A DNA stretch of 63,643 bases, counting the filler, from Kipferlia bialata (taxonomy: Eukaryota), in NCBI GenBank assembly GCA_003568945.1. It is 3 parts of 3 records of this genome, joined end to end, with 100 filler letters (N's around TTAATTAATTAA, not from the genome) between each part and the next. Parts side by side here need not be neighbours in the genome. Positions count along the whole stretch, not along the records: positions 42,503 to 63,643 come from BDIP01000337.1; 2 more parts are not named here. One strand, written 5' to 3'. The notes under the pieces were generated by a model. The model saw nothing but the letters and a program-made list of their open reading frames with translations, had not been told where the DNA came from and made no database searches. A program made the position numbers and the translations under genes. Numbering within the stretch: position 1 is the first letter of the stretch; every line of letters begins with the position of its first letter. Below, in pieces: positions 49,501 to 53,351 of this stretch.

Positions 49501-49940
49501 GGACCCCATCTACTACGGTATGTATCTCTCCCACACACTCTTTCTCCATTCTTCGGACAACGATATTAGTTCTTGTGTGTCGTGTCTCTGTGTCTTCTTC
49601 AACCCTTGCCATTTGTCTCCCTCTATCTCGATGTGTCTCTAGATATGTGTAATCAACTGCTATTTCATAGGTGACAGTGCCCTTGACGTCACCCATGCAT
49701 ACTCTCTCTCCCCCTCTCTCTCCCTCTCTCTATATATATACATATATGTATATATTGACTCTAGATGACAGTGCCCTTGACCGCACCCATGCTTACACAC
49801 ACATGCTCTCTCTCTCTCCCTCTCTCTCTCTCTTTATATATAAGTATATGTATTCCTAATATAGTATATGTTCTTATCCTCAGGTGACAGTGCCCTTGAC
49901 AGGACCCATGCTTACACACACACACTATCTCTCTCCCTCC

Positions 49941-49975
<35 letters not shown>

Positions 49976-50607
49976 GACTCTAGGTGACAGTGCCCTTGAC
50001 AGGACCCATGTCTTCTCTCTCCCTCTCTCTCTTTCTATACATATACACATATCTACATATATGTATATATTGACTCTAGGTGACAGTGCCCTTGACAGGA
50101 CCCATCCCTACTCTCTCTCTTTCTATATATATTTCTCTCCCTCTCTCTCTCTATATATATATGTATATACTGACACTTAGGTGACAGTGCCCTCGACAGG
50201 ACCCATGCCAACTCTCTCTCTTTCTCTCTCCCTCTCTTTCTCTATATATATTCTTATGCTTAAGGTGACAGTGCCCTCGACAGGACCCATGCCAACACCC
50301 TGCACATCGACCCTGTGGATGGGAACCTCTGGATCAGCCTCAGGTACATATAGTATAGCAACATATATATATACACATATACTTATATACATGTTGGATC
50401 AGTCTGAGGTACCACTCTTACTCATATATATTATATATACATATATATATTTATATATTAAGTAATTATATGTATATATTGACCCCGTGGATGGGAACCT
50501 CTGGATCAGCCTCAGGTACCTCTCTCTCTCTCTCCCCCTCCAGAACCTTGTTTTATCCCTACACCCCATATTCTCTGGCGCTTTGACACTGTGGCCAACA
50601 TTCTTCT

Positions 50608-50648
<41 letters not shown>

Positions 50649-53351
50649 ACCCTTATTCTCAGGCACTTTGACACTGTGGCCAACACACACACTCTCTCTC
50701 CCCCCCTCTCTCTCTCTCCCTCTACACCCCTTATTCTCAGGCACTTTGACACTGTGGCCAAGATTGACTGGCAGACAGGGGAGGAGATGTACAACCTAAG
50801 GGTGAGTGATATCAGTGACATCTACTACTAGGTCCTTTCTAATACCTTCATCCGGTACCAACATGTACTGTTTGCATTGTGATCCTATCACTAACCATCA
50901 GGACTTCGACCTCCATGATGCCGACTGCGAGAAATATATATATATATGTGGATATATATATATATATATATATAGGGAGAGAGAGAGATTTGCACATATG
51001 GTTACTGACCATCAGGACTTCGACCTCTTCGATGCCGACTACGAGCCCTATGTCCTGGACTACGAGAACAACGTGTCATTCTTCACACACCAGGTAGGAC
51101 TTAACATCGCCTTCTGTACATACACATACACATACACATATATATTTGTACTAGTCTATTTCATTCGTCAATTATTCAATGGTACGAGAACAACGTGTCA
51201 TTCTTCACACACCAGGTACAGTCCCGTTCGTATATATGTTCGTGTGTATTGATATTCATATTTATATATGACGAGTATCATAGTCCCTATTCTGACACCA
51301 GCACTGCCCCGAGAGCTAAGTATCATTCGCAATATCGTTTGTGTATGTATAGAGAGAGGTTGTGATATTGTATGATAATCCCTATTTTAACACCAGCACT
51401 GTCCCGAGACATACTCTGTGGCAGGCAGACCAGACCTCAAGCTCATCTCCATCTTCGACAACAAGTACGTGTACTATCATATCAATCCAGTGTACATTAT
51501 GAGTAAAGAATCAGAATGTCAGACGAGATCCTAGATTTCCAAGTATTCTCCATTGTGTCTAATTCTCAACCTATTCTAACCCCAGCAACACCCCGGTGTT
51601 CACTCATGGCGCAGCCAGGCACTCATTCGGTGAGTGGCGCTCACTCCCCCTCCATATATAGACTGATATGTCTGGAGCTCTCATATAGTCTTGAGTGTGT
51701 CTACGCGTTGGTACATGCTTCTGTACCTGTAAAGAGTTTTACTCTAAATATCCCATGCCCTCATCAGCGGGGCACTGGAGGAGATCTCTCTCTCTCTCTC
51801 TCTCTATCTCTATCTGTGTATTATTATGTATATATGCTGATTACAGGCACCCTTGCCCTCATCAACGAGGCACTGCAGGAGGCCATCATCCTCAGGAAGA
51901 AGGAACTGCCCACTTACTGTGCATCTCTAGGTACATATATGTATATACCCATGTGCTGTATGATACCAACACTTGTACTAGTAGTATAGGGTCCGTATAT
52001 GTATATATGTATGATGTTTCTCATCCCAGGCACCTCCCAGGTCCTTGCCAACGGCAACATCATATATATTATCTATCTATCCTACGTATATAAATACACA
52101 TACTACACGTATATGTACAGAGTCTCATCCCAGGCACCTCCCAGGTCCTTGCCAACGGAAACATCATATATATTCTCTATCTATCCTATACGTATATACA
52201 CGTATATGTACAGAGTCTCATCCCAGGCACCTCACTCACTTGTACTAGTATTTTTTATTTTTTTAATTATTTTATTATAGGGTCCGTATATGTATATGCG
52301 TATGATGTCTTCTCATCCCAGGCACCTCCCAGGTCCTTGCCAATGGTAACACCTGGTACCACTGTGGAAGACACGAGTCCGTGAAGGGTGAGGGGGGTTA
52401 TGTATATATATATATATATATGCATATATACATATATGGATATGAGTGATGCTAAGTACACCTGGTACCACTGTGGAAGACACGAGTCTGTGAAGGGTAT
52501 GTGTACACACACATGCAGTTTACGTCTCTCTTCGAACTCTTACTCACAACCAGGCTGGAAGGACCCCTTCGGCGACTCTTCTACTGTATATGAGGTATGT
52601 AGTATTGATATGGTATATTGTTATAGTATTGAATATAGACAATTATGACAGAGGTATTGTCGTAAGATATAGTACTATGTACCCCTTCGGCGACTCCTCC
52701 ACCGTCTATGAGGTATGTGGGTCTGGTAAATATGAATCTATAATATGTTGAGTGATCCTATGACTATATATCCTGTATATACTTTTGCCTCCTTGTGTCT
52801 CCACGTTCTGAAACCAGGTCATCCTACAAGTATGTGAATGTATACTTGTATATACATATATAGATGTCTCACCCCCAGGTCAGCCCAGCTGGAGACATTG
52901 TCTACTCTGCTGGATGCGATCTGGCCTCTTACAGGTATGATAATTAGCACTATACTTATAGTATTCCAACCCTTGCGCTACTTCACATATGAATACTTGT
53001 ACACGGCAATTTGTAAGAGTTACACTGGGTTCTAACACCACCAGAGTGTTTTGTCTTTCCTCTCTCTTTGGATGCACTTTGCTTCATACTACTATGTGTT
53101 CTTTGTATAGGATGTATATATGAATAATATATAGTATTCTTACACCCCCAGAGTGTTCCGTCTGTCCTCCCTGTATGGCGGCACAGACTACACCCCTGTG
53201 TCATTAGTATATATATATAGCATATATGTACAGTATGTTCTAATGACTCAGGGTATTCCGTCTGTCCTCCCTGTATGGTGGCACAGACTACACCCCTGTG
53301 TCAGAGGATTACACTGCATCCCTCACCATACCCGCAGCATGGGATGTGTAA
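42705..53351 (+). CDS. Aryl-sulfate sulfotransferase (ASST, bacterial-type beta-propeller); 5' partial, ~30 exons
   Basis: Spliced motifs VVGMMAETEYQLR; TFTTG; TDLNGN; GHHDAVRTPDGRTL; DRTHANTLHIDPVDGNLWISLRHFDTVAKIDWQTGE; FTHQH; IFDNN; GTSQVLANGNT; YEVSPAGDIVY; YRVFRLSSLY. Ends AAWDV with TAA at 53349-53351. Confidence 0.85.
49668..50345 (+). repeat. Acceptor-side exon echo array (6 truncated copies plus real exon)
   Basis: AG|GTGACAGTGCCCTYGACAGGACCCATG variants at ~49671, 49765, 49884, 49985, 50080 and 50181, with the full exon at ~50265. Confidence 0.95.

What the first reader, a model, noticed from the sequence alone, without database searches (positions are those of the whole stretch)
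49668..52715. Echo copies differ from the real exon mostly at synonymous sites
Seen: real TCT TCT ACT GTA TAT GAG (~52577) versus echo TCC TCC ACC GTC TAT GAG (~52695), 4/4 silent. Real CTC GAC AGG ACC CAT GCC versus echo CTT GAC CGC ACC CAT GCT (~49775; Arg AGG/CGC). AAT GGT versus AAC GGC and AAC GGA (~52050, ~52154). Also CAT GCT versus CAC GCC (~31701/31826), ATC CTG TCG versus ATT TTG TCC (~22588/22883) and CCA CTA versus CCC CTT (~9940/9797). Some non-silent changes also occur. Inference: neutral dead duplicates should show mostly replacement changes. The echoes therefore seem to come from coding-constrained templates: divergent alleles captured by unequal recombination or repair, gene-conversion donors, or segments actually used in mRNA.
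Basis: partly seen in the sequence, partly recalled or inferred. Interest (0 to 1): 0.8.

Follow-up and report, generated by a model that had tools for sequence, protein, structure and literature searches.

The report
Half-exon echoes of former alleles
More than half of the modelled exons in this stretch of protist DNA have half-copies in the neighbouring introns that differ mainly at silent codon positions, likely because recombination copied them from other working versions of the gene, so the introns would keep a record of past alleles.

Summary
The organism is Kipferlia bialata (my spliced model is 705/705 identical to KIPB_002146). 79 of 142 modelled exons have intronic half-copies, 161 in all. 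Upstream copies carry the exon start, downstream copies the exon end, about 104 nt apart. Pooled dN/dS against the exon is 0.16 (95% CI 0.12-0.21). That is below 1 and below 0.5, the correct null for a dead duplicate. In the finding's own span the effect is weaker (26 silent, 23 replacement; 0.26). Two layers are visible. Silent changes keep codon preference, and the echo splice sites differ in sequence from the real ones yet still fit the consensus. Replacement changes (about 3.5%) look like random decay. A probable-RNA contig skips 12 echoes, DNA contigs reproduce 10 echo-exon pairs, and recursive splicing was tested and not supported. Best explanation (inferred, 0.55): unequal homologous recombination captured half-exons from divergent functional alleles (about 17% apart at silent sites), which then decayed briefly. 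Against it: no divergent second allele was seen over 7.85 kb, and no second isolate was found.

The parts
42705..53351 (+). Arylsulfotransferase (ASST)-family gene, 31 modelled exons, 41 echoes
   Evidence: 60-80% identical to K. bialata paralogs P0001-P0003; Pfam PF05935 on P0003; exon offsets match the RNA-type contig
50265..50343 (+). Functional exon (modelled) with six upstream echoes and one downstream echo
49671..50217 (+). Array of six upstream echoes (acceptor plus first 27-37 nt of exon 50265): 49671, 49766, 49884, 49984, 50080, 50181
50478..50515 (+). Downstream echo (exon end plus GT) of exon 50265-50343
50578..50683 (+). Two upstream echoes of exon 50741-50801 (50578-50602, acceptor AG lost; 50663-50683)
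50902..50931 (+). Upstream echo of exon 51016-51093
51183..51215 (+). Downstream echo of exon 51016-51093, identical over 33 nt
51752..51783 (+). Decayed upstream echo of exon 51847-51930 (AG lost, 4 replacement changes)
52030..52163 (+). Two upstream echoes of exon 52322-52387 (three states at one Gly codon)
52458..52496 (+). Downstream echo of exon 52322-52387
52554..52594 (+). Functional exon (modelled)
52681..52712 (+). Downstream echo of exon 52554-52594, 4 of 4 differences silent
30259..38204 (+). Gene identical in protein to K. bialata KIPB_002146 (CFAP99-like is my recalled label); 29 exons, 27 echoes, dN/dS 0.05
1521..16142 (-). PEP-utilising / PPDK_N-domain gene, 39 modelled exons, 45 echoes
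   Evidence: weak Pfam PF01326 and PF00391 hits on single exons, below curated cut-offs
21512..24407 (+). Unnamed gene piece, 9 exons, 17 echoes
26734..29194 (-). Unnamed gene piece, 6 exons, 13 echoes
55290..56331 (-). Unnamed gene piece, 4 exons, 7 echoes

Best explanation
The echoes are tandem half-exon duplicates (a splice site plus about 31 nt of exon and about 70 nt of intron) that were likely copied by unequal homologous recombination from other, divergent working alleles of the same gene and have since decayed only briefly. SHOWN: geometry, dN/dS about 0.16, two layers of change, skipping in one RNA-type contig. INFERRED steps: (1) alleles in the species differ by about 0.16-0.19 at silent sites and their microsatellite-rich introns barely align, so exons are the only homology islands; (2) break repair or misaligned exchange between homologs, in a lineage reported to lack NHEJ, copies [intron + acceptor + exon start] or [exon end + donor + intron] from one allele next to another; (3) further unequal exchange in the shared exonic core multiplies units and refreshes cores; (4) selection removes any product that has an acceptor followed by a donor (a cryptic exon), so only half-exons survive, downstream-type before upstream-type; (5) exon-defined or scanning splice-site choice ignores the half-exons; (6) each echo then decays neutrally, about 0.025-0.035 per site so far.
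For: dN/dS 0.16, and 0.15 (0.085-0.234) in 63 of 104 single-echo families. Echo-echo silent divergence 0.185 is about the echo-exon value 0.20 while echo-echo replacement divergence 0.057 is about twice the decay, and silent divergence does not rise with rank. Silent changes: 74 towards and 88 away from preferred codons, vs 23.5% towards for random silent mutation (p=2e-11). Echo flanks are only 46% (acceptor) and 52% (donor) identical to the real flank, yet score 3.9 vs 2.8 and 1.7 vs 2.3 bits, far above neutral-decay simulations of -3.9 and -1.2 (68 of 71 and 70 of 81 above). AG kept in 64 of 71, GT in 74 of 81. Core and flank are decoupled: 44 of 152 echoes are identical over the first 22 nt but their flanks average 52%, only 11 of 44 reach 75%. 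Replacement changes are random-like: 17 in 255 conserved vs 13 in 209 variable ASST sites, BLOSUM -0.65 vs -0.56, 5 stops vs 3.3 expected; the 12 echoes that lost AG/GT have pN 0.113 vs 0.032 in 140 intact. Siblings share the distal breakpoint in 46 of 83 pairs vs 17% unrelated. 24 of 24 mixed introns have all downstream-type echoes before upstream-type; strong donors after upstream echoes are 1 in 3296 nt vs 12 in 3963 nt in the other spacer class. Precedent: silent diversity 0.20 and crossovers concentrated in exons in Schizophyllum commune (PMC4576712 passages; PMC4209137 abstract); metamonads lack NHEJ and are argued to rely on HR (PMC8516963 passages); K. bialata suggested diploid (PMC5874029 section 11).
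Against: No donor allele was seen. Over 42503-50354, run X1 lists 25 differing places, in five spots; the group I read matches paralog P0001, and a homolog 6-7% divergent in exons would give far more. So this sample looks homozygous here. P0004's cluster has 1 member and the metagenome scan found nothing, so species diversity is untested. Flanks are several-fold more diverged than silent sites, which needs very fast intron turnover or older flank lineages. No gradient of dN/dS along trimmed cores. Silent and replacement divergence are weakly correlated (rho 0.15, p=0.06), as a plain age effect would also give. Only two of 11 gene models have outside support.
Confidence: 0.55

Rival explanations
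1. Two-donor version: an old hybrid or long-asexual diploid with two diverged chromosome sets; mitotic repair patched half-exons from one set into the other, and loss of heterozygosity later removed the donor.
For: Gives the same constraint signature without present-day hyperdiversity and fits the absence of a second allele in X1; diploidy suggested; HR reliance.
Against: Mismatch counts per echo are not bimodal (0:46, 1:45, 2:35, 3:13, 4+:22 of 161); 6 three-state sites occur; sibling spacers are mostly unlike each other, only 21% above the 99th percentile of unrelated.
Confidence: 0.15
2. Echoes are old and held by ongoing indirect selection as spare parts: frequent collapse or conversion moves echo sequence into the exon, so echoes with bad codons or bad splice sites are purged.
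For: Splice sites stay consensus-like while changing in sequence; core and flank are decoupled; a few non-tree-like columns among siblings.
Against: Replacement changes are not depleted at conserved residues and stops occur at the random rate. Within one lineage symmetric conversion gives dN/dS about 1 for one echo (my derivation; one search prints the values, no simulation), but single-echo families give 0.15.
Confidence: 0.1
3. Echoes are used directly: in minor isoforms, in recursive splicing, or as splicing elements under selection.
For: AG/GT and branch-like motifs are retained; spacing is tight (median 103.5 nt, 79% within 80-130); 66 of 81 downstream echoes end in AG before GT.
Against: The RNA-type contig offsets equal the exon-only model (311/311, 440/440, 99/99) and skip 12 echoes. 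Downstream echo ends are no more acceptor-like than real exon ends (-8.3 vs -8.5 bits; real acceptors 5.8) and only 6 of 71 upstream echo starts are donor-like. A splicing role would not give a three-base period. Contigs drop rare forms, so minor use is not excluded.
Confidence: 0.1
4. Ordinary dead duplicates beside constrained exons, or an assembler stitching two haplotypes.
For: In the finding's own span the excess over the dead-duplicate null is marginal (p=0.043). 22 of 161 echoes share an exact run of 31 nt or more with the exon. No listed contig spans the six-copy array beyond 49696. X1 may be the source of the window.
Against: Pooled CI excludes 0.5 in all 12 settings and all three pieces. 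10 of 30 echo-exon pairs in the laid stretch lie inside single contig pieces with 0 other letters at depth 311-433, near the 433-494 of unrelated contigs. Up to six differing copies cannot come from two haplotypes; no shared run reaches 55 nt.
Confidence: 0.06

Closest known systems
Human F7 intron 7 VNTR spanning the exon-intron boundary (PMC1557585, abstract)
   Same: Tandem units that span a donor site; downstream pseudo-donors stay silent and the first donor is used, as for the downstream echoes here.
   Different: One locus with a 37-bp minisatellite and identical pseudo-sites. Here 56% of modelled exons are affected, at both ends, with 100-nt units, diverged spacers and a coding-constraint signature.
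Intron gain by tandem genomic duplication (PMC3265369 abstract; PMC3443670 passages); internal gene duplication (Gao and Lynch 2009, recalled)
   Same: Intragenic tandem duplication around AG|GT leaves exon-derived sequence inside introns.
   Different: That route duplicates purely exonic DNA and makes a new intron. Here units include intron DNA, lengthen existing introns by about 110 nt each, and the order expected for that route occurs in 0 of 24 mixed introns.
Tandem exon duplication with mutually exclusive splicing (recalled)
   Same: Duplicated exon sequence with low dN/dS and conserved splice signals.
   Different: 0 of 161 echoes reach both exon ends; none appears in the RNA-type contig.
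Exon-focused crossing-over in hyperpolymorphic Schizophyllum commune (PMC4209137 abstract; PMC4576712 passages)
   Same: Silent diversity of 0.13-0.20 and recombination confined to conserved exonic islands, the conditions my best explanation needs.
   Different: Measured there in populations and crosses; in what I read no half-exon arrays are mentioned. Here the diversity is only inferred.

Membership tests
Boundary-spanning tandem repeat (F7 VNTR type) | Unit spans a splice site and is repeated head to tail | tested here: met
   75 of 75 upstream echoes start within 8 nt of the exon start; 84 of 86 downstream echoes end within 8 nt of the exon end
Boundary-spanning tandem repeat (F7 VNTR type) | Extra splice sites are silent; the authentic site is used | tested here: met
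   For 12 echoes in one RNA-type contig; minor use not testable with contigs
Boundary-spanning tandem repeat (F7 VNTR type) | Near-identical units including the intronic part | tested here: not met
   Flank identity 46-52%
Boundary-spanning tandem repeat (F7 VNTR type) | Copy-number polymorphism | not testable with these tools
   No second isolate found
Mutually exclusive tandem exons | Full-length copies with both splice sites | tested here: not met
   0 of 161 reach both ends; median 41% of the exon
Intron gain by AG|GT tandem duplication | Intron starts with next-exon sequence and ends with previous-exon sequence | tested here: not met
   0 of 24 mixed introns in that order; flank identity to the neighbouring exon 0.23-0.30; one possible case noted in passing
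Recursive (ratchet) splice sites | Acceptor features directly before GT, or a donor regenerated after AG | tested here: not met
   echo ends -8.3 bits vs real acceptors 5.8; 6 of 71 upstream echo starts donor-like; GT/GC exon starts not enriched (p=0.2)
Allele capture in a hyperpolymorphic species | Copies carry a protein-level and splice-level purifying signature | tested here: met
Allele capture in a hyperpolymorphic species | A divergent homolog is present in the same sample | tested here: not met
   None over 7852 nt in X1 contigs; contigs can drop variants, and past donors are not excluded
Allele capture in a hyperpolymorphic species | Silent diversity of 0.1 or more among isolates, shared with echoes | not testable with these tools
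   One strain only
Assembly artefact (haplotype stitching) | Half depth, at most two states, not reproduced by another assembler | tested here: not met
   10 of 30 pairs reproduced at depth 311-433; up to 6 copies; the six-copy array itself not covered

The most novel reading that the evidence does not exclude
Kipferlia, lacking NHEJ, runs an exon-anchored recombination treadmill: it keeps depositing half-exons with working splice sites from other alleles into its introns and exchanges sequence with them. Most intron length is then an archive of past alleles and a reservoir of alternative splice sites, and population diversity can be read from a single homozygous genome.
Probability: 0.3. Interest if true: 0.85.

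Novelty: new variant of a known kind. Interest (0 to 1): 0.72.

Why it matters
It offers a route to intron growth that I did not find described: each echo adds about 110 nt (median intron 116 nt with none, 242 with one, 429 with three) in the only intron-rich fornicate named in PMC5874029. The genome becomes a natural experiment on splice-site choice: strong but unused acceptors and donors sit 100 nt from the used ones in an organism with a reduced spliceosome (87 of 174 proteins, no snRNA candidates; PMC6679479 passages), which points to exon-defined or scanning recognition despite short introns. If the allele reading is right, one genome yields estimates of silent diversity for an unsampled marine protist. 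Echoes also mislead gene prediction (my own predictor took them as exons) and may fragment the assembly.

Tried and rejected
No whole genome is held, so all counts are from this window. Run search: no RNA holder on record; X2 is only guessed to be RNA, though its contig joins exons as a spliced transcript would. Reads were laid only on 42503-50354, so the rest of the finding's span has no read evidence. Metagenome scan with P0003: 18 pattern matches, none confirmed. Homolog search for the PPDK_N-domain gene: none of 38 candidates passed. Paralog donors: only 3 of 30 ASST echo replacements equal a paralog residue, and the KIPB_002146 exon found only itself among 2 candidates (weak evidence of single copy). 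mRNA-templated repair: echo flanks do not resemble the neighbouring exon (0.30 vs 0.28; 0.23 vs 0.23). Fast exon clock: would leave flanks nearly identical, the opposite. Recursive splicing. An apparent weakness of acceptors behind echoes (22 of 45 vs 64 of 86 with YTNAC, p=0.006) vanished with YTNAY (38 of 45 vs 73 of 86). GC-to-AT bias of replacement vs silent changes: not significant (p=0.13). A dN/dS gradient along cores disappeared after trimming. Earlier findings: none. Literature: nine searches listed no paper on this pattern in Kipferlia or elsewhere; the library lacks most subscription papers and I read no supplements.

Full report
Setting. The window is eukaryotic, intron-rich DNA made of three pieces joined by N-padded linkers near 21205 and 42447. 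No whole genome is held. An exon of the gene under the finding hit three Kipferlia bialata proteins at 84-89%, one named arylsulfotransferase (Pfam PF05935). My hand-curated spliced model of the gene at 30259-38204 is 705/705 identical to K. bialata KIPB_002146, which names the species and checks the frames of that model.

Gene models. I trained a simple gene finder, then curated 142 exons in 11 gene pieces (10,957 nt, no internal stops). Not modelled: about 38.2-41.9 kb, 57.5-60.4 kb and short ends. For the ASST gene the RNA-type contig of run X2 gives offsets of 311, 440 and 99 nt, equal to the exon-only model, so the 12 echoes between 44912 and 48362 are skipped. X2 is only guessed to be RNA. 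The other nine pieces rest on open frames, AG/GT ends (two GC donors) and, for one, weak Pfam hits.

The observation. Codon-blind local alignment of each exon to its flanking introns gave 163 echoes at score 30 or more (null rate 0.35%). I dropped two suspected assembly overlaps (13788-13829, 35210-35229), leaving 161 on 79 of 142 exons. All six quoted examples are correct. Pooled dN/dS was 0.11-0.27 over 12 settings and 0.16 (0.115-0.208) over the first 20 nt. A dead copy beside a constrained exon should give about 0.5, because the echo takes all changes and the exon only silent ones (my derivation). Position 3 holds 160 of 231 mismatches against 46-48% for that null. The three pieces give 0.19, 0.14 and 0.14; the externally checked gene gives 0.05; the finding's own span is weaker, 26 silent and 23 replacement, 0.26.

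Anatomy. Echoes are half-exons, median 31 nt. 75 of 75 upstream echoes carry the exon start, 84 of 86 downstream echoes the exon end, and none reaches both ends. This is the geometry of a tandem duplication with one break in the exon and one in the intron. Spacing is a median 103.5 nt; spacers are 66-72 nt. In 24 of 24 introns holding both kinds, downstream-type echoes come first, and strong donors are scarce after upstream echoes (1 in 3296 nt vs 12 in 3963 nt). I infer that arrangements forming a cryptic exon are purged. The matching scarcity of acceptors (2 in 3963 vs 5 in 3296 nt) is too small to rest on.

Two layers of change. Layer one looks like divergence between working genes. Silent changes keep codon preference (74 up, 88 down, vs 23.5% up at random). 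Flanks are 46-52% identical to the real flank but score like real splice sites and far above neutral-decay simulations; donors are slightly weaker than real ones (p=0.018). AG is kept in 64 of 71 and GT in 74 of 81. Silent divergence is about 0.2 for near, far, single and sibling echoes, and 0.185 between echoes. Layer two looks like recent neutral decay. Replacement changes fall equally on conserved and variable ASST residues (17 in 255 vs 13 in 209 sites), are as severe as random ones, include 5 stops against 3.3 expected, double between echoes (0.057) and triple in the 12 echoes that lost AG/GT. Subtracting decay leaves about 0.16-0.19 inherited silent divergence (inference).

Mechanism. 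Single-lineage models give 0.5 or more for exons with one echo (my derivation; no simulation run), yet those give 0.15. The templates therefore diverged while functional. Paralogs are an unlikely source, leaving alleles or a second chromosome set. I favour unequal homologous recombination anchored in exons, followed by exchange in the shared core: siblings share their distal break in 46 of 83 pairs, and identical cores often sit in unrelated flanks. Metamonads are reported to lack NHEJ and to depend on HR (PMC8516963 passages), K. bialata is suggested to be diploid (PMC5874029 section 11), and S. commune shows both the needed diversity and exon-focused crossovers.

Against this reading. No divergent second allele appears in X1 over 7852 nt. 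No second isolate was found. Flank divergence exceeds silent divergence several-fold and needs fast intron turnover. No core gradient survives trimming. The donor is thus inferred, not seen; confidence 0.55, with a two-donor hybrid or asexual version at 0.15.

Rivals tested. Recursive splicing: not supported. mRNA-templated repair: not supported. Assembly stitching: 10 of 30 echo-exon pairs in the laid stretch lie in single contigs with no differences at depth 311-433; X1 may be the window's own source, and the six-copy array is not covered.

Comparison and novelty. It works like the F7 boundary-spanning repeat (abstract) but fails the near-identical-unit test. It is not intron gain by AG|GT duplication and not mutually exclusive exons (recalled). 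The genome paper has no hit for 'tandem', 'allel' or 'heterozyg' in its main text. Nine searches listed nothing on this pattern; supplements were not read. I rate it a new variant of a known kind, interest 0.72: the pattern is solid and strange, the mechanism is testable but unproven.

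Noticed in passing
all modelled genes: Very strong exonic donor consensus: last base G in 128 of 131 exons, second-last A in 111 of 131; first base after the acceptor G in 84 of 131. Unexplained; may reflect the reduced spliceosome.
   Followed up: partly
window 21161-21260 and 42403-42502: N-padded 12-base linkers join three separate pieces. Exons 41978-42316 end one piece and are not shown to belong to the ASST gene, although my scripts labelled them ASSTa.
   Followed up: yes
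window 60635-63475 (-): A 14-exon, low-complexity gene piece has 0 echoes, unlike every other modelled piece; echo density may follow exon conservation.
   Followed up: no
window 9935-9936 (-) and 56261-56262 (-): Two modelled GC donors; the two downstream echoes of the first carry GT. No RNA check.
   Followed up: partly
window 15819-16090 (-): This intron begins with sequence loosely like the start of the next exon, a possible intron born by AG|GT tandem duplication (by eye).
   Followed up: no
window 16960-16977 (+): The last copy of this exon start has TAT where the upstream echoes have an acceptor; the model uses an AG 9 nt further on. Possible acceptor slide.
   Followed up: no
window 13733-13842: Exact 55-nt direct duplicate, likely an assembly overlap; excluded from counts.
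   Followed up: partly
window 38900-41300: Two tandem copies about 1.43 kb apart, 77-89% alike, intron-poor and GC-rich; not annotated.
   Followed up: no
window 48834-49067: About four short upstream echoes of exon 49095 with cores too short for my threshold, so echo counts are underestimates.
   Followed up: no
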